Source: Verrucomicrobia bacterium UBA2281 (lineage in GTDB: Bacteria > Verrucomicrobiota > Kiritimatiellia > CAIQIC01 > Lenti-01). Taken from it: 64,000 bases of DNA. Below the pieces are notes generated by a model. The model worked only from the letters and a program-made list of their open reading frames with translations. It did not search any database and was not told where the DNA came from. This document shows, piece after piece, positions 8,058 through 23,372 of the stretch. A program made the translations under genes and the position numbers. The stretch's first letter is position 1. Each line of letters starts with the position of its first letter. The stretch spans positions 140,971-204,970 of the forward strand of contig DDWR01000024.1 in NCBI GenBank assembly GCA_002347655.1, read 5' to 3'.

Positions 8058-8070
8058 GTTCCGGCCTCCG

Positions 8071-8556: not shown

Positions 8557-8578
8557 GGCCCAATGCCTTTCCGCCGCC

Positions 8579-8821
8579 TTACGGCAGCAATCCCATCACC
8601 CGCGCGCGCCGGATGGCGCGCTTGACCTGGCGCTGTTGCTTCGCGTTCGCGCCCGTGACGCGCGCCGGCACGATCTTGCCGCGTTCGGTCATGAATTTGC
8701 GCAGGAATTCGTAGTCGCGATAGTCCACCACCTGGTCGGCTTTCAGCAGGCGCACGCGCGTCCGCGTCGCGTCGTCTTGCTTGGCGCGCCGCCCGGGCCG
8801 TTTCTTGTTGTCTTTTTTCAT
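8579..8821 (-). CDS. rpsR: 30S ribosomal protein S18
   Basis: [24 protein letters not shown] motif. Confidence 0.9.
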
Positions 8822-8839
8822 GTCTTTTCCGCTCCGTGT

Positions 8840-9274: not shown

Positions 9275-9605
9275 CGTCCGCTTCCTTTCTGGACGGCGGC
9301 GCGACGACCGGGGCCGTCACCACCTGCACGCGGAAAATCCGCTCGTCGAGCTTCAGGCGCGCCTGCAGGGCCGCGACCTTGTCGCCCGCCAGCTGGAACG
9401 CGATCAAGCCGTAGTGGCCGCCTTGCCGCTTCTGCATGACCCGCGCGAATTCGCGCTTGCCCAGCCGCGTGCTGCTGGTCATCTTGCCGCCCTGTTTTTC
9501 GATTTCCGCGCGGACGGCATCGACCGCCCCGTCCCAGTCCGTTTCCTTCAGGGTCTCCTGAAAGATGATCATCGCCTCGTATTTGTTCACCTCATGCCTC
9601 CTCAA
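9258..9605 (-). CDS. rpsF: 30S ribosomal protein S6
   Basis: YEAMIIFQ... and acidic C-terminal tail. Sits in an rpsF-ssb-rpsR-rplI context. The exact start is uncertain (ATG at 9605 or an internal start). Confidence 0.8.
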   Translation of the reverse strand: MRRHEVNKYEAMIIFQETLKETDWDGAVDAVRAEIEKQGGKMTSSTRLGKREFARVMQKRQGGHYGLIAFQLAGDKVAALQARLKLDERIFRVQVVTAPVVAPPSRKEADDGGAE

Positions 9606-10165
9606 TTATACTCGTTCATCGCGCGGTCCGTTCCCTGGGCGAGGATGCACTCCACGGCGTCCGCCGCCCGCGCGGCGGCCTCCGCCAGCGCCCGGCGTTC
9701 CCCGGGATCCATCCGTTCCAGCACGTGATCCTTCAAATCCTTGCCTTCTTCCCGTTCTCCGACTCCGACGCGCACCCGGACGAACTCCTCCGTGCCGAGG
9801 CGCGCGATCACCGACTTCAGGCCGTTGTGGCCGCCCGCGCCGCCGCGGGCCCGGATCCGCAACTTGCCCAAGGGCAGGTTGACGTCGTCGGCCACGACGA
9901 TCAAGTCTTTTGCGGCCAGCCCCGCGGGGCGCATCAGCGCCGGCAGGACGTTCCCGCTCAAGTTCATGTACGTCAGCGGTTTCGCCAGCAGCAGGTTGCC
10001 GACGCCTTCCAGCGCGGTCTTGGCGGTCTGGACGGGCCGGCACCAGGAACGGCGGAACGCCGCTCCGCGGCGCCGCGCAACCTCGTCGAGGACCTGCCAC
10101 CCGGCGTTGTGCCGCGTGTGTTCGTAGGCCCGTCCGGGATTGCCCAACCCCACCACCAGTTTCAT
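9602..10165 (-). CDS. pth: Peptidyl-tRNA hydrolase
   Basis: MKLVVGLGNPGRAYEHTRHNAGW...GGHNGLKS motifs. ATG at 10165 (a GTG at 10192 is also in frame). Confidence 0.9.
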   Translation of the reverse strand: MKLVVGLGNPGRAYEHTRHNAGWQVLDEVARRRGAAFRRSWCRPVQTAKTALEGVGNLLLAKPLTYMNLSGNVLPALMRPAGLAAKDLIVVADDVNLPLGKLRIRARGGAGGHNGLKSVIARLGTEEFVRVRVGVGEREEGKDLKDHVLERMDPGERRALAEAAARAADAVECILAQGTDRAMNEYN

Positions 10166-10198
10166 GCGCGGAATCCGTCGGTCGCCCGCCACGGCGGG

Positions 10199-10915
10199 TT
10201 ACTTCTTCTCCTTCTTCTCGGCGGCCGGGGCCTTGGCGGCTTCCTTGCCCTTCTCCGCGCCCGCTTCGCCTTCCTCTTCCTTCTTCTCGGTCAACACTTC
10301 CGGCCCGGCGGCGGCTTCGGTCTCCGTCGCGGCCTTCTCTTCTTCTTCCGTGCGCGGCGCGGCGACGGCGGCGACCACCTGGTCGGGGTCGCTGAGCACC
10401 TTGTACTTGGCCGCATCGACCGGGACGTCCCGGACGCGCAGCGTCTTGCCGACGTGCAGGTCCGCCACGTTCAGTTCGAATTCCTCGACCATGTCGCCCG
10501 GCAAGCACTGCACCTCCAGCGTGCGCAGCACGTGCTCGAGAATGCCGCCTTCGTTCGCGACGCCCGTGGGGACGCCGACGAGCTTGACCGGCACTTCGAT
10601 CTCGATCTTGCGGGTCATGGACACTTCGTAGAAGTCCACGTGGATGACGCGGCCGGTCAGCGGATGGTGCTGCATGGCCTTGAGCATCGCCTTGAGGGGC
10701 TGCTCGCGGCCTTCCACCGCCAGATCCACGATCATGTTTTCGCTGCGGTGGGTCCGCAGCATCACCACGAAATCGTGCTCGTTGAGCTGGATGTCCAGGC
10801 CCGGGCGTCCCTCGCCGTAGACCACCGCCGGGAACCAACCCGTGCGGCGCAGGCGGCCGGCCGACGCGCTGCCCTTTTCCGCGCGCGTCTTGGCTGTCAG
10901 TTTCGTCTCTTTCAT
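10199..10915 (-). CDS. rplY: 50S ribosomal protein L25 / general stress protein Ctc
   Basis: 238 aa starting MKETKLTAKTRAEKGSASAGRLRRTG, with an acidic/lysine-rich tail. Start at 10915 verified in the sequence. The longer 656-aa frame in the ORF track is a GC-driven artefact. Confidence 0.85.
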   Translation of the reverse strand: MKETKLTAKTRAEKGSASAGRLRRTGWFPAVVYGEGRPGLDIQLNEHDFVVMLRTHRSENMIVDLAVEGREQPLKAMLKAMQHHPLTGRVIHVDFYEVSMTRKIEIEVPVKLVGVPTGVANEGGILEHVLRTLEVQCLPGDMVEEFELNVADLHVGKTLRVRDVPVDAAKYKVLSDPDQVVAAVAAPRTEEEEKAATETEAAAGPEVLTEKKEEEGEAGAEKGKEAAKAPAAEKKEKK

Positions 10916-11874
10916 TGCGTTCTCCCTTGATGAATCTCGAACAGCTTGGAGACCGATTCGTCTCCGTAGATCCGCTTGATCGCGTCGCCGAGCAGGTCCG
11001 CGACGGTCAACACGGTGATCGGGAACCCTTCCCAGCCCGGCTGGGGCGGGATGGTGTCGGTGGTGATGAGCTCCTCGATGGCCGAATCGCGCAGGCGCTG
11101 GATGCCCAGCGGGGTGATCGGGCAGTGGCTGACGACGGCGCGCACGGACTTCGCGCCCTGCTCCTGCGCCAGCTTGGCCGCCGCGCACAGGGTGCCGGCG
11201 GTGGTGGTCATGTCGTCGGTCAGGACGCAGTCCTTGCCCTTCACGTCGCCGACGAGCTCGATGGCCTCGACTTCGGTGGCGCTGGTGCGGTGCTTGCCGG
11301 CGAGGGCGAGGCCCGCGCCGAGGAGCTGGGCATAGGAATAGGCCATCTTCAGGCCGCCCGGATCGGGCGCGACCACCACGCGGTGGTCCGCGGGCAGCTT
11401 TTCGCGCAGGTAGCGCACCATCAGCGGCGCGGCGTAGAGGTGGTCCACCGGAATGTCGAAGAAGCCCTGGATCTGGGGCGAATGCAGATCGACGGTCAGC
11501 ACGCGGTCCACGCCGGCCGCGACGAGCAGGTTCGCCACCAGCTTCGCGGAAATCGGCACGCGAGAGCGGTCCTTGCGGTCCTGGCGCGCGTAGGCGTAGA
11601 ACGGCATCACCGCGGTGATGCGCTTGGCCGAGGCCCGGCGCGCGGCGTCGGCCATGATCAGCAGCTCCATCAGGTATTCGTTGGGCTGCATGCCGGTCGG
11701 CTGCACGATGAAAACGTCGCGCCCCCGCACGGTCTCTTCGTAGGTCACGGAAATCTCGCCGTCGGGAAAGCGCCCGATGCTGGCCACGCTCAAGGGAATG
11801 CCGACGCGCGCCGCGATCTTTTCCGCCAGCGGCCGGTTCGCATTTCCCGCGAAAATCTTGATGTGGTTTTCCAT
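10912..11874 (-). CDS. prs: Ribose-phosphate pyrophosphokinase (PRPP synthetase)
   Basis: MENHIKIFAGNANRPLAEKIA...DLHSPQIQGFFDIPVD. ATG at 11874 has better RBS spacing; 11880 is also possible. Confidence 0.9.
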   Translation of the reverse strand: MENHIKIFAGNANRPLAEKIAARVGIPLSVASIGRFPDGEISVTYEETVRGRDVFIVQPTGMQPNEYLMELLIMADAARRASAKRITAVMPFYAYARQDRKDRSRVPISAKLVANLLVAAGVDRVLTVDLHSPQIQGFFDIPVDHLYAAPLMVRYLREKLPADHRVVVAPDPGGLKMAYSYAQLLGAGLALAGKHRTSATEVEAIELVGDVKGKDCVLTDDMTTTAGTLCAAAKLAQEQGAKSVRAVVSHCPITPLGIQRLRDSAIEELITTDTIPPQPGWEGFPITVLTVADLLGDAIKRIYGDESVSKLFEIHQGRTQ

Positions 11875-11904
11875 GTCCATGTTTCCTGGTTCGGCCCGGC
11901 GCAA

Positions 11905-11978
11905 TGGTTGCCCGACTAGGATTTGAACCTAGACTCTGGCCTCCAAAGGGCCGTGTGCTGCCATTACACCATCGGGCA
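11905..11978 (-). tRNA. tRNA-Gln (anticodon UUG), CCA encoded
   Basis: Read by hand as TGCCCGATGGTGTAATGGCAGCACACGGCCCTTTGGAGGCCAGAGTCTAGGTTCAAATCCTAGTCGGGCAACCA. 7-bp acceptor stem, GGTGTAATGG D-loop, anticodon loop CTTTGGA, and a GGTTCAAATCC T-arm. Confidence 0.8.
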
Positions 11979-12245
11979 ATGCGAGCGATGGCATTCCTCG
12001 GCCGCGCGTCGGCGCCACCCGGCGCCGCGCCCGGCCGCGACAAAGAACCAATCCGGCTCCGCCCCGAGGCGGACCCGTTCAAAAACCCGCGCACCTTACC
12101 CAGCCCCTCCCGAAAAGTCAACCCCCCCCTTTTCCGCGCCCGGGCCGCGCCGGACCCAACGACATCCATTTTAACGCTTTGCGCCCGTTTTGCGCCGTGC
12201 TACCTTGCCTTCGCTGAACCACCCCATGTACGCAGCGAGGCCCTC

Positions 12246-14126
12246 ATGATGAATTTTGCGAAGCGGCTGTTTCCGGCCGCGGCGCTGGCGGGACTGCTCC
12301 TGCAGACCGCCGCCGCCGTCGAACGGGAAACCCACGGCGCCCTCAAGCTCTTCCCCCTCGTCTACCAGCGCGCCACCGAAGATTCCTACGACCTCGAAGC
12401 CCTTTTCGGCCTTGTCGGCGTCCATTCCCGGGGCGAGGAATATTCCCGCCGCGTCGGGCCGCTGTTCTGGGGCGACGACCATCTGCACCTCGCGCCCGTC
12501 TACTGGAATTGGGGCGACAACTGGCTCGTGCCCCCGCTGGCCTGGAACGTCCACGGCCACAAAGGCGTGGGCCCCGTCTGGTGGGGCGACGATTATTTCC
12601 ACGCCGCGCCGCTCTTCTGGAGCTGGAACGACAACTGGCTCCTGCCGCCCGTCGCCGGGCGCCTCCGCGGCACCACCGCCCTCGGCCCCGTCTGGTGGAA
12701 CGACCGCGGCGAATCCGGCCTGTTCCCGCTCTGGTGGAAGAATCCCGACGGCTGGACGCTCCTGCCGCTGGGCTATTCCCACCAAGGCGAAGGCATGTTC
12801 GGCCCCGTCGCGTGGGACGCGCAGCATCTCGACGTCTATCCGTTCTTCTTCAGCGGCGGCGGCGACTGGCTTCTGCTGCCCTTCGGCGGCAAGCTCGACG
12901 ACGACTATATCGCCGGCCCGCTCTGGTGGGGCACCGCCGAATCCGGCCAGCGCTACCTGCATCTGGCGCCGTTCTTCTGGAGCCGCGGCGACAGCTGGCT
13001 CGTGCCGCCGCTGGCGTGGCACGTCGGCGACCACGCGGGCGTCGGCCCCGTCTGGTGGGGGAAAGACTACGTCCACGTCGCCCCGCTCTACTGGAGCTGG
13101 CGGAACAACTGGCTGCTGTTCCCCCTCGCGTGGAACGTCGACGGCCACAAGGGCCTCGGACCGCTGTGGTGGAGCCGCGACTACTTCTGCCTGGCGCCGA
13201 TCTTCTGGAGCAGGCAGGACGACTGGCTGCTGTTCCCGCTGGCCTGGAATATCGGCGGCAACGGCGGCGTCGGCCCGATCTGGTGGGGCCACCGCTATTT
13301 CCATATTGCGCCGCTGCTGTGGACCTGGGAGGGCAACGCGGTGCTGTTTCCGCTGGCGTGGAGCATCGACGGCAACCGCGGCGTCGGGCCCGTCTGGTGG
13401 GGCCGGGACTACTTCCACGTCTTCCCGCTGTTCTGGAGTTCGGGCGGCGACTGGACGCTCCTGCCGCTGGCGTGGAACGGCGCGAACCACAACGGCTTCG
13501 GCCCGCTCTGGTGGGGCGAGGATTATTTCCACGTCGCCCCGCTCTACTGGAGCTGGGACGGCAACCAGCTGCTGCTGCCCCTGGCCTGGAACCTGAAGGG
13601 CAACAAAGGCGTCGGCCCCGTCTGGTGGGGCAAGAACCATTTCCACGTCGCCCCGCTCTTCTGGAGCTGGAACGAGGACTGGCTGCTGTTCCCGCTGGCC
13701 TGGAACCTCGACGGCCAAAAAGGCGTCGGCCCCGTGTTCTGGGGCAAGGATAAAAACGGCGAATCCTATCTCAACGTCTTTCCCCTGTGGATCCGCAAGG
13801 ACCGCACCACCTGGATTCCGCCGCTGCTGGGCTGGATGAACCGGCCCGAAGAAGGCGGCGTCGATTTCAAGCTGGGCCTGCGCCTGCTGCGGTGGGCTTC
13901 CGACGACAAGGGCTACACTTTCGAGCTCCAGCCGCTGCTCGACGTCTCGGGCGGCGACGTCCGCCACTTCTCGCTCGTCTGGCGCCTGTTCGAGTACCAC
14001 CGCGACGCGGACGAACGCTACTGGCGCGCGCTCTTCATCCCCCGCAAGTTCAAGCTGAAGCCCAAGCAAGCCGCCGCCCGCCCGCCCGCGGGCACCGTCG
14101 CCGACGCCTATCTCCCGCGGAATTGA
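12246..14126 (+). CDS. Secreted Trp-rich tandem-repeat protein (about 12 repeats of a 38-aa unit); function unknown
   Basis: Signal peptide MMNFAKRLFPAAALAGLLLQTAAA, followed by repeats of H-x-APL-F/Y-WSW-xx-NWLLFPLAWN-x-DG-x-KGVGPVWWG-x-DYF with a 12-13-aa PLxW periodicity. Start ATG at 12246 verified in frame. Confidence 0.75.
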   Translation: MMNFAKRLFPAAALAGLLLQTAAAVERETHGALKLFPLVYQRATEDSYDLEALFGLVGVHSRGEEYSRRVGPLFWGDDHLHLAPVYWNWGDNWLVPPLAWNVHGHKGVGPVWWGDDYFHAAPLFWSWNDNWLLPPVAGRLRGTTALGPVWWNDRGESGLFPLWWKNPDGWTLLPLGYSHQGEGMFGPVAWDAQHLDVYPFFFSGGGDWLLLPFGGKLDDDYIAGPLWWGTAESGQRYLHLAPFFWSRGDSWLVPPLAWHVGDHAGVGPVWWGKDYVHVAPLYWSWRNNWLLFPLAWNVDGHKGLGPLWWSRDYFCLAPIFWSRQDDWLLFPLAWNIGGNGGVGPIWWGHRYFHIAPLLWTWEGNAVLFPLAWSIDGNRGVGPVWWGRDYFHVFPLFWSSGGDWTLLPLAWNGANHNGFGPLWWGEDYFHVAPLYWSWDGNQLLLPLAWNLKGNKGVGPVWWGKNHFHVAPLFWSWNEDWLLFPLAWNLDGQKGVGPVFWGKDKNGESYLNVFPLWIRKDRTTWIPPLLGWMNRPEEGGVDFKLGLRLLRWASDDKGYTFELQPLLDVSGGDVRHFSLVWRLFEYHRDADERYWRALFIPRKFKLKPKQAAARPPAGTVADAYLPRN

Positions 14127-14481
14127 TGCCGCGCATCTCGGAGCGGCACCCTGGCGGCATTGCGGCTTTCATTTTTCTCTAGCTTGGCGGCCGGGTTTCT
14201 GCGATATATTCGGCAGTTCCGCGGCGATTCTCGGCTCGGACGTTGTTCTTTCCATTTTGCGTTTTGAAGTCTTCCCCGCGCGAGCGGGGAGTCGTTCTAA
14301 TCGAAAACCAGCAATTTTCTTATTCCAGAACGAGACTTGTGGACGCGCCCAACCCTGGGCGCGGCCCCTTGTCTTGTGTTCTGGAAAGGGGCTTGCTGGT
14401 CCCTCGATTAGGGCATGGGCCTGGGGTTCGCGCCTCTTTTCATTTCGTGCGGCACCGGGTCCATGCCACCCATTCGGGAGC

Positions 14482-17400
14482 ATGCCCATGAGAAATCCGA
14501 GGATGAAAAACAAGCCCGCCATCGGGATCGGAATCACTGCTGCCATCGCCGCGCTTGGGCTTGTGGCTTTGGCCTCGGATTCCGCCCGGACCGAAAAGCC
14601 GGCCGCCGTGGATGCCCAGGAATACGCCGATTTCATGGCGAACGAAGCGCTGGACGTGCAGGACCTGGCGGAAGGCGCGGAACTCCAGCGCCGGACGTTC
14701 AACCGCATGACGCCGCCGGGCCTTTCCTGGGTCCAGCCGATGTTTCCTCTCACGGTTCCGTTCGACGCCGCGAATTTCAACGAGAAGTTCCTCGACGAGC
14801 TGCTGGGCGAGGACCGGAACAGCGTGGCGGTCTATCCGCTGACCTTGGCGCTCGATCCCAAGACCCGCGAGACTTGGATCTATAACGCCGAGGGCAAACC
14901 GATCGCCGCGCTGCCGCCGGAAAAGATTTCCCGGGCGTGGCCCGAGGGTTCCGATCCAGCCCGGGTGGTCTTGCGGCTGGATCTGTTGCCCGCCGAGGAC
15001 GTGGAGCCGTACCTGTACGTGGAGGATCGCATGGCCGAAACCGTCTCCGCTTTTTCCGAAAAAGCGGCCAAGTCCGCGCGGAAAGAAGCCGTCGCCAAGA
15101 GCGGCCTGTCCGGCGGGCAGTTCGGATTTGCCGATGCCCGGAAACTGACCAACGGGAACTTCCGGCTGACGGTGACGAACGGGCCGGCTGCGGCGGAAAT
15201 CTTCTCCTACACGATCTGGCACACCTCGTCGGTGGTGGTCTCCACTTGGACCAACGACTTGGACGAGGTCGTCGTGAGCACGAATGTCGTCTGGACGCCC
15301 GTGTCCCCGCCGTATGCCGGGCTGGAAAGCGCATGGGAAGTCGAAACGACGAACTTGCTTCTGACCAACGGCGTGGGCATTTGGGAGGACGCAAGCGCCA
15401 CCGGCAGCGCCCGGGTGCGATTCTACGGGACCACCCAAAGGGCGGATTCCGACGAAGACGGCTTGACCGACGGCGCGGAAATCTTCCTGCACCGTACCGA
15501 TCCATCCTTGTCCGACACCGATGGCGACGGCATGCCCGACGGCTGGGAGGTGACTTACGGCTTGAATGCCCGTTCCGGCCTCGACGAATCCTTGGTCGGC
15601 TGGTGGAAGCTGGACGACGGCGCGGGCTCCAACGCCGTCAATTCCGCCCAGGACGCCTACCATGGTGAACTGGTGGGATTTTCCGGTTTGGGCGGCGGCT
15701 GGACGGGCGACGGGTGTTTAGGCGGCGCCCTGCGATTCGACGGCATCGACGACTGGGTGCGGATTGCGCAGGATCCGGCGATGCTGACGGGTGGTCCCTT
15801 CACCGTGAGCGCGCAGGTGTGGCTGGACCCGGATTGTGCCTCGGCTTGGCCCGAAGCGGTCGCCGATTACGAGGCCTCGACCTATAACGGCTATTGCCTC
15901 GGCTTCAACGAAAACCGCGCCTACGCCATGGTGGGGCCGTACGGCTGGCTCATGGACTCGAACGCGCTCGCGGGCCGGTGGGTCTGGACGGCGCTGGAAT
16001 ACGACGGCGCGCAGATGCGGCTCTATCTCGACGGCGTTTTGGCGGGAGCGACGCCCGTCGCGTTCGTACCAGCGACGAACGGATTTTTCGCCATCGGCAA
16101 CGGACAGGACGACAGCTTCGGCTCCGAATTCTGGAAAGGCCGGATCGACGACGTGCGCCTGTACCGGGCGGTCCTCGGCACGAACGGTCTCGCCGGCATG
16201 TACGACGCGCAGGCGGACCCGGACGGCGATGGCTGGCTCAACCTTCAAGAAAGCGCGCACGGCACCGATCCGTTCCGCGCGGACACGGATGAAGACGGCA
16301 TTTCCGACGGCGACGATCCCGAACCCCTCGTGGCCAATCAGGAACCGATCATGCGGTTCCGGCATCCGCTGGACGGCCAGACGTTCCTCGGCCCGGCCAA
16401 AATCGAACTGAGCAGCGAGTGGATCTACGGCACGCAACCGCCCTCGCAGGCGGTTTATCGGATCGAATCGCTGCTCGACGGCGCCACGAACGAGATCGCG
16501 GTCGCCGCCGGAAGCGATCAGAAAACGAACTGGTACGCGCCTCCGGGGGTCTTCCGCTTGACGGTCCGGGGTGTGGATGCGGGCGGACGGACGGGCGAAA
16601 CGCGCCGGGTGGACGTCGCCGTGGCGGAGAGCGGTTCGTTCGCGGCGCTGACGGCCGCCGAAAAACAAACCGTTCTGGAAAACGGGCCCCGGGCCGTCGA
16701 AGGAGTGGAAGAATGGACGTACGGATATTCTGGCGCGCGGACCGGCAGCCTGCCCGTCGCCGCGGCCGGCAGCCGCATCCTTGCGGGGTTTGCCCAAGCG
16801 ACCAATTTCACCGCCGTGCCGGTGAGCAACTCGTATCTGGACGTTGACTACCATGATCGCGACGCGACGTATGCGACGGTCGTGCCTGGCAACACGCCGA
16901 CGACGAACCTGTTCGCCACCTTGTACGGCGCGGCGCGCTGGGGCGCGCGCCTGGAGGCGAATCTGCCCCCGCCATCGTCTCCGCGCGGCTGGCCGGTGGC
17001 TTACGACTCGTTCTTGGTTTTCGACCAGAATGAACGCGGCGAATGGGTCGGGAAGGTTTATCCCAGTTTGAACAACCTGGCCACGAATGATCCGCATGCC
17101 CTGCTGCATATGGGCTACGGGGCGGAACGCGATGCTTTCTTCTATAGAAACGGAAGCTACCAAGTGCTTCTGGGACCGACGAATTTCAATGGAGAGTTCG
17201 ACTACCGATTGGTCTTCGGCCTGAACAACGCAGGTCTCGTTGTCGGGGCCGGCCTCGATTACGAAGCGCATGGCGGAGGGATGTATCTGGGCCTGGAGGA
17301 ATTTCGTCCCATCGTCTACGGAATCGGCCAAACCGGAACGGTACTGGCGGTCAGCACGCAGGCGATAGGCGGCGCGGCCTATGCGGTCAACGACAAGGGC

Positions 17401-19815
17401 GTCATCGTCGGCTGCGAGATCGCATCCAACGAAATGCCCCGCGCCGTCCGATGGGTGAATGGCCAGGTCGCCGCCGTGGGCGGCCTGACGGGGGCGACGC
17501 AAAGCGTCGCCTTCGATGTCGGCGAAGATGGAACCATCGCCGGCATGCAGAAAATCGGCGGTCAATGGCGACCGTTCCTGGCGGATGCCGCGAGCGGCGA
17601 CGCCTTTTCGCCCGCCATGCTTGGCGGCGTGGATTTCCGGGAATTCTGGCATGTCGGCAAGTTCGGCGCGTTGGGCTGGGGCGCCAGCAACGACGCCCAG
17701 CGCCTCTACTGGGTGTTCCCGGACGACGATCAGGACGGTTTTTCGGACGTCGTCGAGCAGGAGATCGTCGCTGCCGACCCGTTCGACACCCTGATCACCA
17801 TTGCGGGCGTGCTCGGAAGCGACGATTTCGACGGCGACGGGCTGACCAACGCTCAAGAGTGGGAAAAACAGAGCGATCCGGTGCTCAAAGACAGCGACGG
17901 CGACCGCCTTCCGGATGGGACCGATCCTTGGCCTTTGACCCGGCGGGACCGGGACGGCGACGGTTTGCCGGACGACTGGGAAACCCACCACGGCCTCAAC
18001 CCCTTGTCGGCGACGGGCGCGAATGGCGCTGCGGGCGACCCGGACGGCGATGGATTGGTCAATCGCCTGGAATTCGAACTGGATACCGTTCCGACCGGTC
18101 CAAATGGCCCGGCATTTCGGTTCCACCGGGATAAGCTCAATCAATTGCAGGTATCCATCGAAGACTCGCTGAATTGCCCGAACGGAACTCAGGATTCGCG
18201 GCAAATCGTCGAGCGCAGCATCCGGTTTGTAGAAATATTGGATACCAACTTGCCGCCGCTCGACATCAATTTCCTGGTGGGCGTCGCGGGACGGGTCGAA
18301 CGCCAGGATGCTGGTTATGACTTGGTCAGCGTCAACGGCGTTCGGGCCTTTGCCGGATCGAGCGAAGGCTTGGGCTGTGAAATGGCCGAAAAATCCGAAT
18401 GGGTTGTTGTGCCGGTGTCGGTGCCGCCGGGCGACCTCGTCTTGACTTACGATACATACGACGGTGCATTTCATACAGGGGCCTTTGCGAGAGTGACAGG
18501 AATCGCACTAACCCAGGCCGAGACGAACGTGCCTTCAGTGGAAGTCGCCGAGACCGAAATATTCGTCTGCGCGGGATGTACGAACGGTTGCACCGCGACA
18601 TTCCACTTGACGAACGGAAACCCCGTCGGTGTTTCTGCGGATTGGTACGGAGGACCCAGCAATGCCCTGCTCGGCACGGGTACGAGCGTGACCATCGACT
18701 ACACGGCATGGCCCCCCGCCAGCTACCGCATCGTCGCCTGCGCCACCGGCAACGTGGCCTATGCCGATGCCGCCGTGTTGCACGTACTTAAAGTGGAGAC
18801 CGCTTTCGCCGATCCGGACGACGCGAACTGGGCCGACCTGGCGGAAGAGAAAGTCATCCTCTCGGACAAGGACACCCGGATCAAGATCAAGGTCACGCCG
18901 CAACTGGCCGATTTGCAGACCATTTTCTATGCGATCGGCACGACCGTGAATATCAAAACTTCCGGGACCGCTCCGAACGGCCAGGACTTCACGATGACTT
19001 CGCAGAATACAACGCTGGTGCAGGAGAGCGGCTACTCCGAGTTGCGCGTTGCGCTGACGCGTAGCCAACTCATTTCCCTCGGCGTCTTGCCGAGTCAGGA
19101 GAGCGATTCCGTCACGGAGAAAGCTTGGTATGACACTGGTTTCGACACGGACGTGTCGTGGCCGAACCTTCTGGATGGCCACGCTTTCGACAATGGCATG
19201 TCTGCGGAAACGCGCGGGCAATGCACTCAGGCCATATATGGCGGGTTGGACAGCACGCCGCCCAACAGTCCGCTGGACAATTCCTTTTTCAAGGCCGGCG
19301 GGGTCGAAATCATCACGGCGGAATGCTGCTCGGGAGTGTCCGACAAACGCCAGCTCATGAACCAGGCGGATTATTTCTACTACTCCGGCCACGGGTGGAT
19401 CTTAACGGGCGCAGTCTATCCCGGCGGGCCATCTGATGTGAGCGGTTATTGGGACAAGGATTTGAATGTCATCATTTTTGCTGGATGTTCTGTTTTGGAC
19501 ATCAACGATTACAACGACAATACGAATGGTGCGGCCCATCTAGCTTCTCCAGGAAAACTGTGGGAGCCAATTGGCCCTGAATATTTTCTAGGCTATAACT
19601 GGAAAGCACCGACAGACCTGCAAAACTCAGATTCAATTATCTCAAGTTGGCTCTCAAATCGAGGGGCGCTTGGAAATATTGAGGCGTGGCGGGCGGCTAA
19701 CGACAACTCCAACGGACACAACGCCTGTGCAATCATTAAAAATACGAGCTACTTCTATTTTAGAAGAATACTGGGAATTCCCGTATGGACCGAAGTTCAA
19801 AAGGCGGATTGGTGA
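14482..19815 (+). CDS. Large secreted multidomain protein (about 1,777 aa) with TSP3-like Ca-binding repeats, a LamG domain, HAF-type repeats, and a foreign low-GC C-terminal module
   Basis: Signal peptide MKNKPAIGIGITAAIAALGLVALA. Several DxDxDG runs (DSDEDGLTDG, DTDGDGMPDGWE, DPDGDGWLNLQE, DTDEDGISDGDD, DSDGDRLPDG, DRDGDGLPDDWE, DPDGDGLVN). A LamG/ConA-like segment (GGALRFDGIDDWVRI...RLYLDGVLAG...GRIDDVRLYRAVL). A HAF-like segment (AAYAVNDKGVIVG...AVRWVNG). Alternative ATGs at 14488 and 14503. Confidence 0.85.
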   Translation: MPMRNPRMKNKPAIGIGITAAIAALGLVALASDSARTEKPAAVDAQEYADFMANEALDVQDLAEGAELQRRTFNRMTPPGLSWVQPMFPLTVPFDAANFNEKFLDELLGEDRNSVAVYPLTLALDPKTRETWIYNAEGKPIAALPPEKISRAWPEGSDPARVVLRLDLLPAEDVEPYLYVEDRMAETVSAFSEKAAKSARKEAVAKSGLSGGQFGFADARKLTNGNFRLTVTNGPAAAEIFSYTIWHTSSVVVSTWTNDLDEVVVSTNVVWTPVSPPYAGLESAWEVETTNLLLTNGVGIWEDASATGSARVRFYGTTQRADSDEDGLTDGAEIFLHRTDPSLSDTDGDGMPDGWEVTYGLNARSGLDESLVGWWKLDDGAGSNAVNSAQDAYHGELVGFSGLGGGWTGDGCLGGALRFDGIDDWVRIAQDPAMLTGGPFTVSAQVWLDPDCASAWPEAVADYEASTYNGYCLGFNENRAYAMVGPYGWLMDSNALAGRWVWTALEYDGAQMRLYLDGVLAGATPVAFVPATNGFFAIGNGQDDSFGSEFWKGRIDDVRLYRAVLGTNGLAGMYDAQADPDGDGWLNLQESAHGTDPFRADTDEDGISDGDDPEPLVANQEPIMRFRHPLDGQTFLGPAKIELSSEWIYGTQPPSQAVYRIESLLDGATNEIAVAAGSDQKTNWYAPPGVFRLTVRGVDAGGRTGETRRVDVAVAESGSFAALTAAEKQTVLENGPRAVEGVEEWTYGYSGARTGSLPVAAAGSRILAGFAQATNFTAVPVSNSYLDVDYHDRDATYATVVPGNTPTTNLFATLYGAARWGARLEANLPPPSSPRGWPVAYDSFLVFDQNERGEWVGKVYPSLNNLATNDPHALLHMGYGAERDAFFYRNGSYQVLLGPTNFNGEFDYRLVFGLNNAGLVVGAGLDYEAHGGGMYLGLEEFRPIVYGIGQTGTVLAVSTQAIGGAAYAVNDKGVIVGCEIASNEMPRAVRWVNGQVAAVGGLTGATQSVAFDVGEDGTIAGMQKIGGQWRPFLADAASGDAFSPAMLGGVDFREFWHVGKFGALGWGASNDAQRLYWVFPDDDQDGFSDVVEQEIVAADPFDTLITIAGVLGSDDFDGDGLTNAQEWEKQSDPVLKDSDGDRLPDGTDPWPLTRRDRDGDGLPDDWETHHGLNPLSATGANGAAGDPDGDGLVNRLEFELDTVPTGPNGPAFRFHRDKLNQLQVSIEDSLNCPNGTQDSRQIVERSIRFVEILDTNLPPLDINFLVGVAGRVERQDAGYDLVSVNGVRAFAGSSEGLGCEMAEKSEWVVVPVSVPPGDLVLTYDTYDGAFHTGAFARVTGIALTQAETNVPSVEVAETEIFVCAGCTNGCTATFHLTNGNPVGVSADWYGGPSNALLGTGTSVTIDYTAWPPASYRIVACATGNVAYADAAVLHVLKVETAFADPDDANWADLAEEKVILSDKDTRIKIKVTPQLADLQTIFYAIGTTVNIKTSGTAPNGQDFTMTSQNTTLVQESGYSELRVALTRSQLISLGVLPSQESDSVTEKAWYDTGFDTDVSWPNLLDGHAFDNGMSAETRGQCTQAIYGGLDSTPPNSPLDNSFFKAGGVEIITAECCSGVSDKRQLMNQADYFYYSGHGWILTGAVYPGGPSDVSGYWDKDLNVIIFAGCSVLDINDYNDNTNGAAHLASPGKLWEPIGPEYFLGYNWKAPTDLQNSDSIISSWLSNRGALGNIEAWRAANDNSNGHNACAIIKNTSYFYFRRILGIPVWTEVQKADW

Positions 19816-19819
19816 TCTT

Positions 19820-20512
19820 ATGAAAATGCACTATATATTTCTGTTGATTTTCCTGATGCTCGTCTCAATCGCGTTAGGACAACAGCCAGTCAAGATGGCC
19901 GATATTCTTAATACAGTTCGGCAGCAGGGCCATTTGAAAGATCCCGAAATTGCTATTTCCGCTGAAAAAATAATTGCGGGTTCTACTAACCTTGAAGAAG
20001 TGGGTGCGGCCAAGATGCTACTTGCGCAATCTCTGGCCGACTCTGGGAGCCATCGTTTGAATGCTGATGCTCTTGAAAGAGCAAGAACGCTTTGGGAAGA
20101 AGAGCTCCGCGACAGTCCGAGTTCTTGGGAAGGGCAGTTGGCTCGATTTAATCTGATCGCCGACCTCGGTACACAGGGGTCAAACTCGGCCATAATCGTT
20201 TCGGCTCAAGACGCCTTGAAAGACATGAACTTTGACATATTGGAAAATTCCTCTAGTCCTGTGTTGAAAACGCTTCGCCAGCTTTTTGGGGATCGGCCAA
20301 ACCTTTTCCGTGAAGGAATGAAGCTTGCCCTTGCAAACGCACTCTGCAATGAACTCCGCATTGCAGAAGCACGAAATGTTTTCGATACCATTACGGATCC
20401 TGAATACAAAAACATCATTCAATCCCGTATCGTTTTGGCGGAGAAGTCGCTGACCGAGAAAGAACATTTAGCCGCTGAACATCTGAAATCTGCCCCGGGT
20501 TCAGTTCCGTAG
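19820..20512 (+). CDS. Small secreted protein of unknown function (low-GC, candidate immunity/inhibitor partner of the upstream C-terminal module)
   Basis: 230 aa with an N-terminal signal/anchor MKMHYIFLLIFLMLVSIALGQQP. Start lies 4 nt after the upstream stop. GC about 46% against about 68% for the genome. Confidence 0.7.
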   Translation: MKMHYIFLLIFLMLVSIALGQQPVKMADILNTVRQQGHLKDPEIAISAEKIIAGSTNLEEVGAAKMLLAQSLADSGSHRLNADALERARTLWEEELRDSPSSWEGQLARFNLIADLGTQGSNSAIIVSAQDALKDMNFDILENSSSPVLKTLRQLFGDRPNLFREGMKLALANALCNELRIAEARNVFDTITDPEYKNIIQSRIVLAEKSLTEKEHLAAEHLKSAPGSVP

Positions 20513-21127
20513 TCTAGTGGTTTCTTGGAGGTCGGCGGGGTATTCCACGGTGTTGATAAATTCTTGGGGCGGTCGCCTCGCGTAAGCCGACCTTACACTC
20601 CGCTCGCTGCGCTCGCGGGTAGTAGGCGCGCCCAGGAGCCGCGCCAGCGCGGGGACGCGCTGTCACGTCTCCTGCGGGGCTGCGGGCGCGCCGCTGTCCC
20701 CCGTGCCGCTTCCCTTCGGGACGCGCGGCCCGTGGGTTTTGGCGCGGCGGGGAGGCGGTAGGCTGCGGTTTCCCCCGCCTTGGTTTTCCCCCCGGCGCCC
20801 CCCTTTCGGAGGCGCCCCCTTTCCGAGTGCGGATCATCGGCCGGGGGGCAAACCCATCCCCGTTCGGTCGCTTGCGCTCCCTCACTGGGGGCAACCGCAC
20901 GGCGGCCATTTTCGTTTATGGTGCCGCCGCCCTTCGGGTCCCCCCGCCGAAATCTCTCTGCCGCTTGCTGAACACCCCCATCCCCCCGCAGTCTTGCGGG
21001 GGCCGGTCGCGCGTACGCCGGCGGGACGCGTCCCGCACGGCTCCCGCGCTTCCACGGTCGCCGCCGACCCGCAACCAGTTTTCGCCGTCCTTGCCCTCGG
21101 GCGGGCGCTTGGGCTATCGTGCGCCCC

Positions 21128-22240
21128 ATGGACGTGTCCGTCATCCTGACCTACCGCTGCAACTCGCGTTGCTCGACGTGCCACGTCTGGCAGCACCCCA
21201 CCCTGCCCGCGGAAGAAGTGACCCTCGCCGTCCTCGCCAAGCTGCCGGGCGGGCTCGACCGGCTCGTGCTCACCGGCGGCGAGCCCACGCTCCGCGCCGA
21301 TCTCGGGGAAATCGTCGATTGCCTCCGCCCCAAGGCCCGCCAGCTCGAGATCTCCACCAACGGCCTGCAGGCCGACAAGCTCGAGCCGATCGCCGCGAAG
21401 CATCCCGACGTCCGGTTCCGCCTTTCCCTCGACGGCCTCGGCGCCCGCAACGATTCCATCCGCGGCGAGAAAAACGGGTTCGAGCGCAAAATGGCGACCC
21501 TGCGCCGGCTCGTCGCGGCCGGCGCGCGCGATCTGGGTTTCGCGGCCACGCTGCAGGACGAGAACGCCGACCAGCTGCTCGAACTCTACCGGCTCTGTTC
21601 CGATTTCGGCGGCGAGTTGGCCGTCGCCGCGCTGCACAACGGCTTCCTGTACCACAAGATCGACAACGAGTCCGCCAACCGCGTGCGTCTCGCGCGCGCC
21701 GTGCAGCCGCTGATCGCCGCGCGGCTCCGGTCCCGCCGGCCGCGGAACTGGTTCCGCGCCCATTCCGAACTCGGTCTGATGCGGAAAATCCTCGGCCAGC
21801 CGCGCGGTCGGCCCTGCACCGCCGGGCGCGACTGCGCCTGCGTCGATCCCTGGGGCCGCGTCTACGCCTGCCCGATCCGCCCCGACCTCGAGATCGGGGA
21901 TCTGGCCGCGCAGACCTGGCGAGAGATCCTTCGCGGCCCGCGCGCCGCCGAGGCCCGCACCCGCGTCGCCCGCTGCACCCACAACTGCTGGCCGGCCGGA
22001 ACCGCCGGGCGCCCCGGGCGGTTCCCCGGGCTCCGGCCGTTCGCGTGGATCGCGGCCCACCGGCTGCGCGGCGTGGGCGGCGGCCCCGTCGATTTCGACC
22101 GCGAAGTGGATTTCGCCGACGTCGCCCAGTCGCCCGTCGTGCCCCGCCGCGAAAGCTGGCTGGGCAAGCCGTTCCGGCCGGCCTTCCAGCGCAAGTCGGA
22201 ACGCCCGTACGGCGCGTTCAACAACGGCATGAACAGGTAG
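21128..22240 (+). CDS. Radical SAM protein with a C-terminal SPASM/twitch-like Cys cluster
   Basis: CNSRCSTC (CxxxCxxC) near the N-terminus. C-terminal CTAGRDCACVDPWGRVYACP...CTHNCW. An alternative GTG start lies at 21119. Confidence 0.85.
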   Translation: MDVSVILTYRCNSRCSTCHVWQHPTLPAEEVTLAVLAKLPGGLDRLVLTGGEPTLRADLGEIVDCLRPKARQLEISTNGLQADKLEPIAAKHPDVRFRLSLDGLGARNDSIRGEKNGFERKMATLRRLVAAGARDLGFAATLQDENADQLLELYRLCSDFGGELAVAALHNGFLYHKIDNESANRVRLARAVQPLIAARLRSRRPRNWFRAHSELGLMRKILGQPRGRPCTAGRDCACVDPWGRVYACPIRPDLEIGDLAAQTWREILRGPRAAEARTRVARCTHNCWPAGTAGRPGRFPGLRPFAWIAAHRLRGVGGGPVDFDREVDFADVAQSPVVPRRESWLGKPFRPAFQRKSERPYGAFNNGMNR

Positions 22241-22244
22241 CCCC

Positions 22245-23372
22245 ATGAAGATCGCCGTCCTCGGCAGCAAATCCCTCCCCGCCTTCGCCGGCGCCGACCG
22301 CGTCGCCGAAAACGTCGTGCAGCATCTGCCCGCCGACGGCGGCACCCGCTGCCACGTCTACGTCGTGCGCACGCCGGCCCAGCCGCGCGCCTTCGATTTC
22401 GCCCCGAACGTCCGCGTCATCCCCGTCCCGGCCTTGAGCGGCAAGCACAGCAAGGCCACCACGTTTTTCCTGCTCAGCGCGCTGCACTGCGCGCTCGTCC
22501 TGCGGCCCGACCTCGCCCACGTCCACGATTCCGCCTTCGGACCCTTCGCGTGGATCCTGCGCATCCTGCGGCCGGGGCTGCCGCTCCTCGGCACCTTCCA
22601 CGGCAACCCCTACGAAAGGGCCAAGTGGAGCCGCTTCGCCAAGGCGTTCCTGCGCTTCTCGGAAGCCGCCTTCGTCCGCGGTTGCCACGCCCTCACCACC
22701 GTGGCCCGCGCCAAGGTCGCCGAGGTCCAGGCGCGGGTCAAAACCCCCATCGAGTTCATTCCCAACGGCGTCGAGCCCGCCCCGGCGATTCCCGCCACCG
22801 GCCTCGCCGCGCGGCTCGGCCTGGTGCCCGGCCAATACCTCATGTTCGCCGCCGGCCGCATGGACCCCACCAAAGGGCTGCACCACCTGCTCGACGCCGT
22901 CGAGCAGCTCAAGCTCGACCTGCCGCTGCTCGTCGTCGGCGGCTTCGAAGGCCACAACCAGGACTATTCGGAGAAACTCCTCGCCCGCTGCCGCGCCGTC
23001 CCGCGCCTCGTGCTGGTTCCCCGGCTCCTGCCCCAGCCCGAACTCTTCGAGCTCGTCGCCGGCGCCCGGCTCTTCGTGTTCCCCTCCGAAATCGAAGCCA
23101 TGAGCATGATGCTGCTCGAAGTGATTTCCTGCGGCGTGCCCGTGCTGGCCTCCGACATCGCCGAAAACGTCGAAGTCGTCGGCGCGGATTATCCGTGGCT
23201 GTTCCGGAACGCCGACGCCGCCCACCTGGCCGAAAAGCTCGCCCGGTTCCTGGGCGCCGGCCCCGGCCCGGAAATCGCCGCCCTGCGCGAACGCTGCGCG
23301 CGCGAGTTCAACTGGACCGCCATCGCCGGGCGCTACCTCGCGCTGTACCGCCGCCTTGCCGGCGGCGTTTGA
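22245..23372 (+). CDS. Glycosyltransferase family 1 (GT4-like)
   Basis: C-terminal GT1 signature ...LFVFPSEIEAMSMMLLEVISCGVPVLASD. Starts 5 nt after the radical-SAM stop. Confidence 0.85.
   Translation: MKIAVLGSKSLPAFAGADRVAENVVQHLPADGGTRCHVYVVRTPAQPRAFDFAPNVRVIPVPALSGKHSKATTFFLLSALHCALVLRPDLAHVHDSAFGPFAWILRILRPGLPLLGTFHGNPYERAKWSRFAKAFLRFSEAAFVRGCHALTTVARAKVAEVQARVKTPIEFIPNGVEPAPAIPATGLAARLGLVPGQYLMFAAGRMDPTKGLHHLLDAVEQLKLDLPLLVVGGFEGHNQDYSEKLLARCRAVPRLVLVPRLLPQPELFELVAGARLFVFPSEIEAMSMMLLEVISCGVPVLASDIAENVEVVGADYPWLFRNADAAHLAEKLARFLGAGPGPEIAALRERCAREFNWTAIAGRYLALYRRLAGGV

What the first reader, a model, noticed from the sequence alone, without database searches (positions are those of the whole stretch)
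12246..14126. Secreted protein built from about 12 tandem 38-aa Trp-rich repeats of no recognised family
After a signal peptide the protein is almost entirely repeats of H-x-APL-(F/Y)-WSW-xx-NWLL-FPLAWN-x-DG-x-KGVGPVWWG-x-DYF. That is three PLxW-type submotifs per unit, a period of about 12-13 aa, and 4-5 Trp per 38 residues. The DNA is a near-perfect 114-bp tandem array. I cannot match it to choline-binding, MORN, WD or other known Trp repeats. It sits directly upstream of, and co-oriented with, the large LamG/TSP3 protein. That position suggests a partner role such as a scaffold, chaperone, carbohydrate binder or beta-solenoid.
Basis: seen in the sequence. Interest (0 to 1): 0.65.

Follow-up and report, generated by a model that had tools for sequence, protein, structure and literature searches.

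The report
Exported Trp-rich beta-repeat protein, uncurated family
This is a real, conserved gene for a secreted protein built from twelve tryptophan-rich 38-residue beta units; it belongs to a widespread bacterial family that nobody has curated or studied, and the large neighbouring gene is a recent insertion rather than its partner.

Summary
The ORF at 12246-14126 (+) is real. It encodes 626 aa with 9.7% Trp, has a Sec-type signal peptide, and shows dN/dS of 0.19-0.37 against three orthologues.

It has an N-cap, 12 units of 38-43 aa and a conserved ~95-aa C-cap. Each unit holds three P-phi-x-W submotifs. The DNA array is not near-perfect: units are 70% identical on average.

Pfam, NCBIfam and PDB sequence searches give nothing. 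Profile searches place it in an uncurated superfamily of at least 282 exported proteins, many with a lipobox-like N-terminus, from Kiritimatiellia, Lentisphaerae, Planctomycetota and Myxococcota (hhalign probability 99.9%).

AlphaFold2 predicts an all-beta protein with about four strands per unit, but confidence is low (pLDDT 60). Foldseek finds only propeller-like local similarity (TM about 0.1). The fold is unresolved.

The partner idea fails. In four related genomes the 7-kb segment carrying the LamG/TSP3 gene (14119-21127) is absent. In three of them the repeat gene is followed 14-17 nt later by the radical SAM/SPASM gene that lies at 21119 here. More distant relatives have unrelated neighbours.

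My best reading is a non-catalytic, aromatic-rich beta-repeat scaffold in the cell envelope, probably ligand- or glycan-binding. That function is inferred, not shown.

The parts
12246..14126 (+). Coding sequence of the 626-aa Trp-rich repeat protein, including the stop codon
   Evidence: ORF and translation. GC3 is 0.86. dN/dS against L001, L002 and L003 is 0.19-0.37.
12246..12317 (+). Signal peptide, residues 1-24, Sec type I, no lipobox Cys
   Evidence: Read from the sequence. It is conserved in the orthologues L001-L003. Many members of the wider family carry a lipobox-like motif instead (87 of 183 retrieved proteins).
12318..12455 (+). N-terminal cap, residues 25-70 (KLFPLVYQ...EALFGLVG.HS...RRV)
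   Evidence: Conserved in subfamily alignments A1 and A2. It aligns to the N-terminal 'RVNLWPLAY' module of the wider family. AlphaFold2 pLDDT is 70-85 here.
12456..13769 (+). Twelve repeat units, residues 71-508. Each is 38-43 aa with three P-phi-x-W submotifs. Units 3-5 are degenerate.
   Evidence: Anchor spacing is 38, 38, 39, 38, 43, then 38 six times. Submotif list. The model predicts about 4 beta-strands per unit.
12960..13757 (+). The seven most regular tandem 38-aa (114-bp) units, residues 239-504
   Evidence: Tandem Repeats Finder: period 114, 6.9 copies, 72% matches over 12969-13750. Unit table. Unit identities.
13770..14054 (+). Conserved C-terminal cap, residues 509-603 (VFPLW..IPPLLGW..GYTFELQPLL..GG..HFSLVWRLFEYHRD..YWRALFIP)
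   Evidence: It holds most of the invariant columns in A1 and A5. AlphaFold2 pLDDT is about 90. It aligns to an internal module of the ~800-aa Planctomycete-type lipoproteins.
14055..14123 (+). Pro/Ala/Lys-rich C-terminal tail, residues 604-626
   Evidence: Low pLDDT. It varies among subfamily members.
11905..11978 (-). tRNA-Gln(UUG). It bounds the upstream intergenic region and excludes the longer ORF start.
   Evidence: ARAGORN; Rfam hit of 59.9 bits.
14119..21127 (+). Lineage-specific 7.0-kb insertion, not part of the repeat-protein unit. It carries the large LamG/TSP3 ORF (about 14479-19815), a small ORF (19820-20512) and about 600 bp of non-coding DNA.
   Evidence: Absent from L001-L004, which are otherwise collinear. 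GC falls to 0.47-0.58 over 18000-20600. Pfam domains.
21119..22240 (+). Radical SAM/SPASM gene, the neighbour of the repeat gene in all four close relatives
   Evidence: Pfam Radical_SAM plus SPASM. In L001, L002 and L004 it starts 14-17 nt after the repeat gene's stop. The closest solved relative is SkfB at E 4e-14.
22245..23372 (+). GT4 glycosyltransferase, last gene of the same co-oriented cluster
   Evidence: Pfam Glycos_transf_1 and Glyco_transf_4. It starts 4 nt after the radical SAM stop. It is collinear in L001 and L004. L002 and L003 have a second radical SAM gene and a glycosyltransferase-like ORF (judged from its sequence; no domain search was run) in this position.

Best explanation
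The gene encodes a Sec-exported, non-enzymatic, all-beta repeat protein.

Architecture:
- signal peptide
- N-terminal cap
- twelve units of about 38 residues
- conserved C-terminal cap

Each unit is a triplet of a 12-13-residue aromatic submotif (phi-phi-x-phi-x-P-phi-phi-W-x-x-D/N/G). It is predicted to form about four antiparallel strands: two long and two short.

The protein is the Trp-richest, most regular branch of a large uncurated superfamily of exported proteins, many of them apparent lipoproteins, in the PVC group and some other phyla. It corresponds to the N-terminal half of the ~800-aa forms.

My proposal is that the units pack into a rigid, aromatic-rich beta scaffold in the periplasm or cell envelope and that this scaffold binds a ligand rather than catalysing a reaction. 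Envelope or substrate glycan is the likeliest ligand.

The unit number is held at 12 in several lineages, even where the units have been homogenised. I therefore favour a closed or length-constrained arrangement with propeller-like blades over a freely extensible solenoid.

The gene is not functionally tied to the LamG/TSP3 gene. In its closest relatives it sits next to a radical SAM/SPASM gene and a glycosyltransferase.

Shown: the gene, purifying selection, the repeat architecture, superfamily membership, absence of a curated family and the insertion. Inferred: export, the fold class, and any binding or envelope role.
For: The gene is real and constrained.

Architecture and unit count:
- 12 units in the window and in L001-L003.
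- Also 12 in L016, and 11 counted in L014, where a twelfth anchor (AFPVFWG, 38 aa upstream) can be read in the sequence but falls outside the regex. These share 51-56% identity with the window over the C-cap.
- L016 units are up to 97% identical to each other, and L003 units 8 and 9 are 82% identical. Homogenisation has occurred while the count stayed the same.

Family placement:
- No curated family or solved homologue.
- Superfamily: 88 and then at least 282 proteins in iterative profile searches, all 'hypothetical' with no Pfam domain.
- hhalign of the subfamily against the Planctomycete-type group: probability 99.9%, E 1e-32, covering N-cap, repeats and C-cap.
- 87 of 183 retrieved proteins have a lipobox-like motif.

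Structure:
- All-beta prediction with two long and two short strands per unit.
- pLDDT is 70-85 at the N-terminus and about 90 in the C-cap.
- The best Foldseek local matches are all beta-propellers, including tandem WD40 propellers and the six-bladed Kelch domain.
- Runs such as W-L-L-F-P-L-A-W are hydrophobic on both faces, as expected for strands buried between sheets (read from sequence).

Context:
- There is no catalytic motif or domain.
- Glycan-synthesis genes lie nearby in the window lineage (radical SAM and GT4).
- In Victivallis the homologue follows Wzm/Wzt, PMT_2, Bac_transf and GT4 directly.
- A Bac_transf gene lies 4 kb upstream of P0018.
Against: Structure:
- The fold is not established. 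Overall pLDDT is 44.6 and then 59.9, pTM is 0.39, and residues 148-368 of the second model are below 50.
- Foldseek TM-scores are about 0.1 with rmsd about 30 A, so there is no real structural neighbour.
- Shorter family members have 5 units (P0001) or about 6-7 (P0003). The wider family uses 26-27-aa units. Both fit an open-ended repeat as well as a closed one.

Function:
- No ligand, localisation or expression data exist.
- The association with glycan genes holds in only about 3 of 13 contexts examined. The others are unrelated housekeeping genes.
- The signal peptide was judged by eye only.
Confidence: 0.45

Rival explanations
1. An open-ended beta-solenoid or hairpin stack. Each 12-13-aa submotif would be one rung or hairpin, and the protein would form an elongated fibre- or adhesin-like rod. 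Its length would be tuned by unit number and exposed Trp ladders would bind polysaccharide, as in choline-binding or glucan-binding repeats.
For: - The N-cap / repeats / C-cap layout is typical of solenoids.
- Unit number differs across the subfamily: 5 in P0001, about 6-7 in P0003, 12 elsewhere.
- The wider family uses two-submotif (26-27 aa) units instead of three.
- A conserved Pro sits in the middle of every submotif and could mark a corner.
- Some units in the model show 3-4-residue strands with a period of about 6 residues.
Against: - The count is fixed at 12 in at least four divergent lineages despite unit homogenisation.
- The better-predicted units show 9-11-residue strands joined by 2-residue turns. 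These are hairpins, not rungs.
- A 13-residue rung cannot enclose a Trp/Phe/Leu core (my inference).
- No sequence match to CW_binding or other solenoid families.
Confidence: 0.25
2. The repeat protein is a substrate of the adjacent radical SAM/SPASM enzyme or enzymes and the GT4. For example, repeated W-W-G-K or F-W-S-W-N motifs would be cross-linked or glycosylated in the cytoplasm before Sec export, much as anaerobic sulfatase-maturating enzymes act on whole exported proteins.
For: - In L001, L002 and L004 the radical SAM/SPASM gene starts 14-17 nt after the repeat gene's stop. It is followed directly by a second radical SAM gene and/or a glycosyltransferase.
- The closest solved relatives of the radical SAM are peptide-modifying enzymes: SkfB at 4e-14 and PqqE.
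- Its NCBIfam hits include weak, generic matches to WgkB and DynA among the listed families.
- A B12-radical SAM gene follows the Kiritimatiellaeota homologue P0007.
- The units contain W-G-K and W-x-W-N motifs that resemble Trp-cross-linked RiPP cores. That resemblance is from my memory and was not tested.
Against: - All radical SAM family hits are far below cut-off, so the similarity is generic.
- Subfamily members at 51-56% identity (L013-L016), P0003, and the Victivallis and Planctomycete homologues have no radical SAM neighbour.
- The window lineage tolerates a 7-kb insertion between the two genes.
- A 626-aa folded beta protein with a signal peptide is unlike any known RiPP precursor.
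Confidence: 0.05
3. One reading: a dedicated partner (scaffold, chaperone or secretion helper) of the downstream LamG/TSP3 giant protein.
For: In this window the two genes are adjacent and co-oriented. One distant relative, L015, also has a different giant Big_9/cadherin/PKD protein about 875 nt downstream.
Against: - The LamG/TSP3 gene is absent next to the orthologue in all four close relatives.
- It lies on a 7-kb insertion whose 3' part has a lower GC content.
- No other homologue context shows such a pairing.
Confidence: 0.03
4. An outer-membrane beta-barrel whose long hairpins are transmembrane strands.
For: The protein is exported. It has many consecutive ~10-residue strands joined by tight turns and abundant aromatic residues. 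The wider family ends in '...LFIPWG', close to the C-terminus.
Against: - The strands have contiguous rather than alternating hydrophobic residues, for example WLLFPLAW.
- There is a conserved mid-strand Pro.
- The window protein ends in a polar 23-residue tail (...AYLPRN) with no terminal aromatic beta-signal.
- Many relatives have a lipobox-like N-terminus and some have helical inserts.
- No OMP family hit.
Confidence: 0.05

Closest known systems
Uncurated superfamily of exported proteins with 'G-x-F-P-L-x-W / A-G-P-V-W-W' repeats (e.g. Victivallis vadensis HF882_18725; Planctomycetota MAG proteins L0323_00080 and P1V81_04950; Kiritimatiellaeota FWG50_05330)
   Same: - N-terminal export signal.
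- N-cap motif (V/L-N/K-L-W/F-P-L-x-Y).
- 12-13-aa P-phi-x-W hairpin submotifs.
- A 'phi-S-phi-phi-W-R/P-L-F-E-x-x-R' closing module.
- hhalign probability 99.9%, E 1e-32.
- All are annotated as hypothetical, with no Pfam domain.
   Different: - The window protein has a type-I signal peptide rather than the lipobox-like motif seen in many relatives.
- It uses a three-submotif 38-aa unit instead of 26-27 aa.
- It is richer in Trp: 9.7% against 4-6%.
- It corresponds only to the N-terminal half of the ~800-aa forms and lacks their helical middle and second C-terminal module.
NCBIfam NF047486, LA_1737_Cterm (Leptospira LA_1737 family protein, function unknown)
   Same: Nine of 22 superfamily relatives give sub-threshold matches of 17-39 bits (best E 7.8e-10). 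These fall in the module that aligns with the window protein's C-cap.
   Different: The window protein itself gives no hit even at E<=10. All relatives score below the 60-bit cut-off. The family has no known function, so membership would explain nothing.
Beta-propeller repeat proteins with small blades (WD40, Kelch, tectonin-type lectins)
   Same: - Unit length of about 38 aa.
- About four antiparallel strands per unit.
- A fixed unit number of 12.
- The best Foldseek 3Di matches are tandem WD40 propellers and the six-bladed Kelch domain, with E down to 6.5e-5.
   Different: - No sequence match to any propeller family.
- TM-scores are about 0.1, so there is no superposition.
- AlphaFold2 did not produce a confident closed ring.
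- The three-fold internal submotif symmetry within a unit is not a propeller feature.
Aromatic beta-hairpin solenoids that bind cell-wall polymers (choline-binding CW_binding_1 repeats, clostridial/streptococcal glucan-binding repeats)
   Same: Tandem short aromatic-rich beta-hairpin repeats in exported proteins, acting as a non-catalytic binding module. This is a comparison of concept, from my own knowledge.
   Different: The period (12-13 or 38 aa against about 20) and the motif both differ. There is no Pfam hit. The protein has N- and C-caps and comes from a diderm PVC host.

Membership tests
Any curated Pfam-A / NCBIfam repeat family (CW_binding, MORN, WD40, Kelch, PQQ, Tectonin/Hyd_WA, etc.) | HMM match at or above the family's gathering or curated score | tested here: not met
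   0 families at E<=10 in Pfam and NCBIfam for the window protein. 22 relatives give no credible Pfam family: only two single-member chance matches at E 0.003 and 0.03.
NCBIfam NF047486 LA_1737_Cterm | Score of at least 60 bits against the model | tested here: not met
   No hit for the window protein. Relatives score 16.8-38.9 bits.
Uncurated PVC-type P-phi-x-W hairpin-repeat protein superfamily (defined here) | Significant profile-profile alignment covering N-cap, repeats and closing module | tested here: met
   hhalign probability 99.9%, E 1e-32, 297 aligned columns. Profile searches recover each group from the other.
Uncurated PVC-type P-phi-x-W hairpin-repeat protein superfamily (defined here) | N-terminal export signal (lipobox-like in many members) | tested here: inconclusive
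   The window protein has a signal-peptide-like N-terminus without a Cys. 87 of 183 retrieved proteins have a lipobox-like motif. No signal-peptide predictor was available.
Beta-propeller | Four-stranded antiparallel blades arranged in a closed ring, with a structural match to known propellers | tested here: inconclusive
   About 4 strands per 38-aa unit and a fixed count of 12. Foldseek hits are propellers, but TM is about 0.1 and the model pTM is 0.39.
Open beta-solenoid | One rung per repeat with parallel stacking, and a freely variable repeat number | tested here: inconclusive
   Repeat number varies from 5 to 12 across the subfamily but is fixed at 12 in most lineages. The model is not confident enough to show stacking.
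RiPP-like or protein substrate of a radical SAM/SPASM maturase | Conserved co-occurrence of the substrate gene with the maturase gene across the family | tested here: not met
   The genes are adjacent only in relatives with at least 73% identity. The radical SAM is absent next to L013-L016, P0003, P0029, P0049, P0073, P0125 and P0048.
RiPP-like or protein substrate of a radical SAM/SPASM maturase | Chemical modification of the repeat residues | not testable with these tools
   Needs mass spectrometry of the native or co-expressed protein.
Dedicated partner of the LamG/TSP3 giant protein | Conserved adjacency of the two genes in related genomes | tested here: not met
   The LamG/TSP3 segment 14119-21127 is absent in L001-L004.
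Outer-membrane beta-barrel | Alternating hydrophobic strands and a C-terminal aromatic beta-signal | tested here: not met
   Read from the sequence: hydrophobic runs are contiguous, and the C-terminus is a polar tail ending ...AYLPRN. No OMP family hit.

The most novel reading that the evidence does not exclude
The 38-aa Trp-rich unit and its 12-13-aa P-phi-x-W building block may define a new beta-repeat fold class with its own N- and C-caps. It would be used by a phylum-spanning, entirely unstudied family of envelope proteins (Kiritimatiellia, Lentisphaerae, Planctomycetota, Myxococcota, perhaps Leptospira) as a glycan- or envelope-binding scaffold. In this lineage it could additionally be matured by the co-operonic radical SAM/SPASM and glycosyltransferase enzymes.
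Probability: 0.2. Interest if true: 0.6.

Novelty: new variant of a known kind. Interest (0 to 1): 0.4.

Why it matters
At least 282 proteins from several phyla share this architecture, and none has a Pfam domain, a solved relative or a known function. That makes the family a sizeable blind spot in annotation of the PVC cell envelope.

The branch in this window is the most regular member. A structure or localisation for it would annotate the whole family. The cultured Victivallis vadensis homologue HF882_18725 would serve the same purpose.

The practical result here is corrective. The suggestive pairing with the LamG/TSP3 giant is an artefact of a recent 7-kb insertion. The DNA repeat is old and diverged, not a hypervariable array.

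No mechanism of broad significance is yet testable from the sequence alone.

Tried and rejected
Searches that gave nothing useful:
- Pfam, NCBIfam and PDB sequence searches with the protein, the family profile and a 38-column unit profile. The only hits were chance matches, for example to the ETV6 SAM domain.
- Literature searches for LA_1737 and for Trp-rich repeats returned nothing relevant.
- Promoter and terminator scans gave nothing above background.
- Rfam found only the tRNA.

Structure attempts:
- The first AlphaFold2 run with 17 sequences gave pLDDT 44.6 and was unusable.
- The second run with 82 sequences gave pLDDT 59.9.
- Foldseek against the PDB returned only propellers at TM about 0.1, so I do not count it as a fold assignment.

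Context and fusions:
- The search for related loci with alignment A1 failed because it had no conserved stretch. The single protein and a C-cap alignment worked instead.
- No target-site duplication or mobile-element signature was found at the insertion ends.
- A search for informative domain fusions in large relatives found only one weak case, fused to a PilY1 propeller.

Explanations considered and rejected:
- Partner of the LamG protein: contradicted by synteny.
- Outer-membrane barrel: wrong sequence pattern and C-terminus.
- Contingency-type hypervariable repeat: the count is stable and the units have diverged.
- Spurious high-GC ORF: excluded by dN/dS and GC3.
Full report
THE OBSERVATION

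An ORF of 626 codons lies at window 12246-14126 on the + strand. A longer reading from the ATG at 11904 would run through a tRNA-Gln gene on the opposite strand (11905-11978). The start at 12246 is therefore the credible one, and it has a GAGG five bases upstream.

The N-terminus, MMNFAKRLFPAAALAGLLLQTAAA|VE, has the form of a type-I signal peptide with no lipobox cysteine. This is read from the sequence, because no predictor was available.

The protein is 9.7% Trp, 13% Leu, 12% Gly and 8% Pro. It contains about 31 P-phi-x-W submotifs at a 12-13-residue period. Three submotifs make one 38-residue unit.

Anchoring on the G-P-x-W-W submotif gives twelve units at residues 71, 109, 147, 186, 224, 267, 305 ... 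495. The spacings are 38, 38, 39, 38, 43 and then 38 six times. Units 3-5 are degenerate.

The claim of a 'near-perfect 114-bp tandem array' does not hold:
- Tandem Repeats Finder gives 6.9 copies with 72% matches.
- The regular units are on average 70% identical in DNA (maximum 79%) and 56% identical in protein.

The gene is genuine:
- GC3 is 0.86 in a 66% GC window.
- dN/dS against three orthologues is 0.19, 0.24 and 0.37.

WHAT IT BELONGS TO

Curated libraries give nothing:
- Pfam and NCBIfam report no family even at E<=10.
- The PDB has no sequence relative for the protein, the subfamily profile or a 38-column unit profile.

Close relatives are rare. A full HMMER pass over 1.84 billion representatives found 48 proteins at E<=0.001, most of them fragments.

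Iterated profile searches widen the picture:
- They reach 88 and then at least 282 proteins.
- The source labels name Victivallis vadensis, Kiritimatiellaeota, Planctomycetota and Myxococcota.
- All are called 'hypothetical' and none has a Pfam domain.

hhalign of the close subfamily against the ~800-aa Planctomycete-type group gives probability 99.9% and E 1e-32. The alignment covers the N-cap, the repeats and the C-cap. It places the window protein as the equivalent of the N-terminal half of the larger lipoproteins.

The only curated model touched is NCBIfam NF047486 (LA_1737_Cterm, a Leptospira family of unknown function):
- Nine of 22 relatives score 17-39 bits against a 60-bit cut-off.
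- The window protein itself does not score at all.

STRUCTURE

Two AlphaFold2 runs were possible.
- With 17 sequences the model was unusable, with pLDDT 44.6.
- With 82 sequences the mean pLDDT was 59.9 and pTM 0.39.
- In the second model the N-cap plus the first units scored 70-85 and the C-cap about 90. Residues 148-368 of the model were below 50.

Both models are entirely beta. In the better-predicted units each 38 residues gives two short strands (3-4 residues) and two long strands (9-11 residues) joined by a two-residue turn. That is an antiparallel four-strand element.

The unit counts bear on closed versus open architecture:
- 12 units in the window protein and in its orthologues L001-L003 (73-92% identical to the window protein).
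- Also 12 in L016, and 11 counted in L014. In L014 a twelfth anchor (AFPVFWG, 38 aa upstream of the first counted one) can be read in the sequence, but it falls outside the regex used. Both proteins are only 51-56% identical to the window protein in the C-cap.
- L016 has homogenised its units to as much as 97% identity yet still has 12.
- In L003, adjacent units 8 and 9 are 82% identical to each other, again without a change in number.
- Shorter members exist: P0001 with 5 units and P0003 with about 6-7.

I read this as a constraint on number that fits a closed or length-defined assembly better than a freely extensible solenoid. It is not proof.

GENOMIC CONTEXT

A scan of 185,579 species genomes found four loci with orthologues, labelled Kiritimatiellia, 'Verrucomicrobia' or 'Opitutia' MAGs. 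All four are collinear with window 8000-14118 and then jump directly to window 21128.

The 7.0-kb segment 14119-21127 is therefore absent in every relative. It holds the LamG/TSP3 ORF, a small ORF with no family hit, and about 600 bp of non-coding DNA. Its 3' part drops to 47-58% GC. It is an insertion in this lineage.

In L001, L002 and L004 the repeat gene's stop codon lies 14-17 nt from the ATG of a radical SAM/SPASM gene. That gene is followed by a GT4 glycosyltransferase (collinear in L001 and L004). In L002 and L003 it is followed by a second radical SAM gene and then a glycosyltransferase-like ORF, judged from its sequence only.

The pairing with the radical SAM gene does not extend further:
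- Subfamily members at 51-56% identity have DUF4143/AlbA_2, a Big_9/cadherin giant, ThiG or FeoAB as neighbours.
- P0003 lies among GH43, methylase and phosphatase genes.
- The Victivallis homologue follows a Wzm/Wzt, PMT_2, Bac_transf and GT4 cluster.
- Three Planctomycete homologues sit among housekeeping genes.

There is no conserved partner. There is only a mild recurrence of envelope-glycan synthesis genes nearby.

MECHANISM

I commit to the following model. The protein is a Sec-exported, non-catalytic, aromatic-rich beta-repeat scaffold of the cell envelope. Its capped array of twelve four-strand units forms a rigid, probably closed, propeller-like assembly. That assembly presents or buries many Trp residues and binds a ligand, most plausibly a glycan.

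Shown:
- the gene and its constraint
- the repeat architecture
- family membership
- absence of enzyme motifs and of any curated family
- the insertion

Inferred:
- export
- fold class
- binding
- the nature of the ligand

Confidence in the whole statement is about 0.45. It is much higher for the architecture and family part, and low for the ligand.

RIVALS
- An open solenoid or hairpin rod (0.25).
- A protein substrate of the neighbouring radical SAM and glycosyltransferase enzymes (0.05). This is intriguing because the radical SAM's closest solved relatives are the peptide maturases SkfB and PqqE. However, the adjacency is not conserved across the family.
- An outer-membrane barrel (0.05).

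NOVELTY AND SCORE

The protein is not a member of any described family. It is, however, one more exported aromatic beta-repeat protein, a known general kind. I rate it 'new variant of a known kind' with interest 0.4.

The family's breadth, together with the complete absence of annotation or structure, makes it a reasonable target for structure determination. Nothing here yet points to a surprising mechanism.

Noticed in passing
window 14119-21127: A 7.0-kb segment is absent from four otherwise collinear relatives (L001-L004), so it is a lineage-specific insertion exactly between the repeat gene's stop and the radical SAM start. No flanking direct repeats or mobile-element genes were found.
   Followed up: yes
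window 18000-20600: GC falls from about 0.66 to 0.47-0.58 over the 3' end of the LamG/TSP3 ORF and the small downstream ORF 19820-20512. That ORF encodes 230 aa with a hydrophobic N-terminus and has no Pfam or NCBIfam hit. The arrangement looks like a swapped C-terminal module plus a small partner gene.
   Followed up: partly
window ~19300-19560 (C-terminal region of the large ORF): The C-terminal domain contains '...YYSGHG...' and '...IIFAGCS...'. This looks like a caspase/clostripain-type His-Cys dyad, judged from memory only. A phmmer search of PDB sequences with the last 420 aa found nothing, and no Pfam domain was reported there.
   Followed up: partly
L001 6764-6790; L002 11873-11900; L004 853-880; window 21119-23372: In the close relatives the repeat gene, a radical SAM/SPASM gene, (in L002 and L003) a second radical SAM gene, and a glycosyltransferase form a tightly spaced co-oriented cluster. 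The gap after the repeat gene is 14-17 nt. The radical SAM matches no NCBIfam equivalog, and its best solved relative is SkfB.
   Followed up: partly
window 20513-21118: About 600 bp of GC-rich sequence with no credible ORF lies at the right end of the insertion, just upstream of the radical SAM gene. Rfam finds no family there.
   Followed up: partly
L016 4483-6309; L003 1441-3315: Unit homogenisation without a change in number. L016 has units up to 97% identical to each other, and L003 units 8 and 9 are 82% identical. Both proteins still have 12 units.
   Followed up: yes
L005 1-7962 (Victivallis vadensis JABAEW010000052.1): The Victivallis homologue (P0029, a lipoprotein) is the last gene of a co-oriented PMT_2, Bac_transf, GT4 run, 52 nt after the GT4 gene. 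Divergent Wzm/Wzt ABC-transporter genes lie upstream. This is a second lineage in which the family sits next to envelope-glycan genes.
   Followed up: partly
P0114 (2683 aa, metagenomic): A giant protein combines a weak match to the Trp-rich repeats (residues 627-834, E 1.4e-5) with a PilY1 beta-propeller domain at 2126-2487.
   Followed up: no
L015 1836-4883: One distant subfamily member also has a giant surface-type protein (Big_9, cadherin-like and PKD domains) about 875 nt downstream. It is unrelated to the LamG/TSP3 protein of the window.
   Followed up: partly
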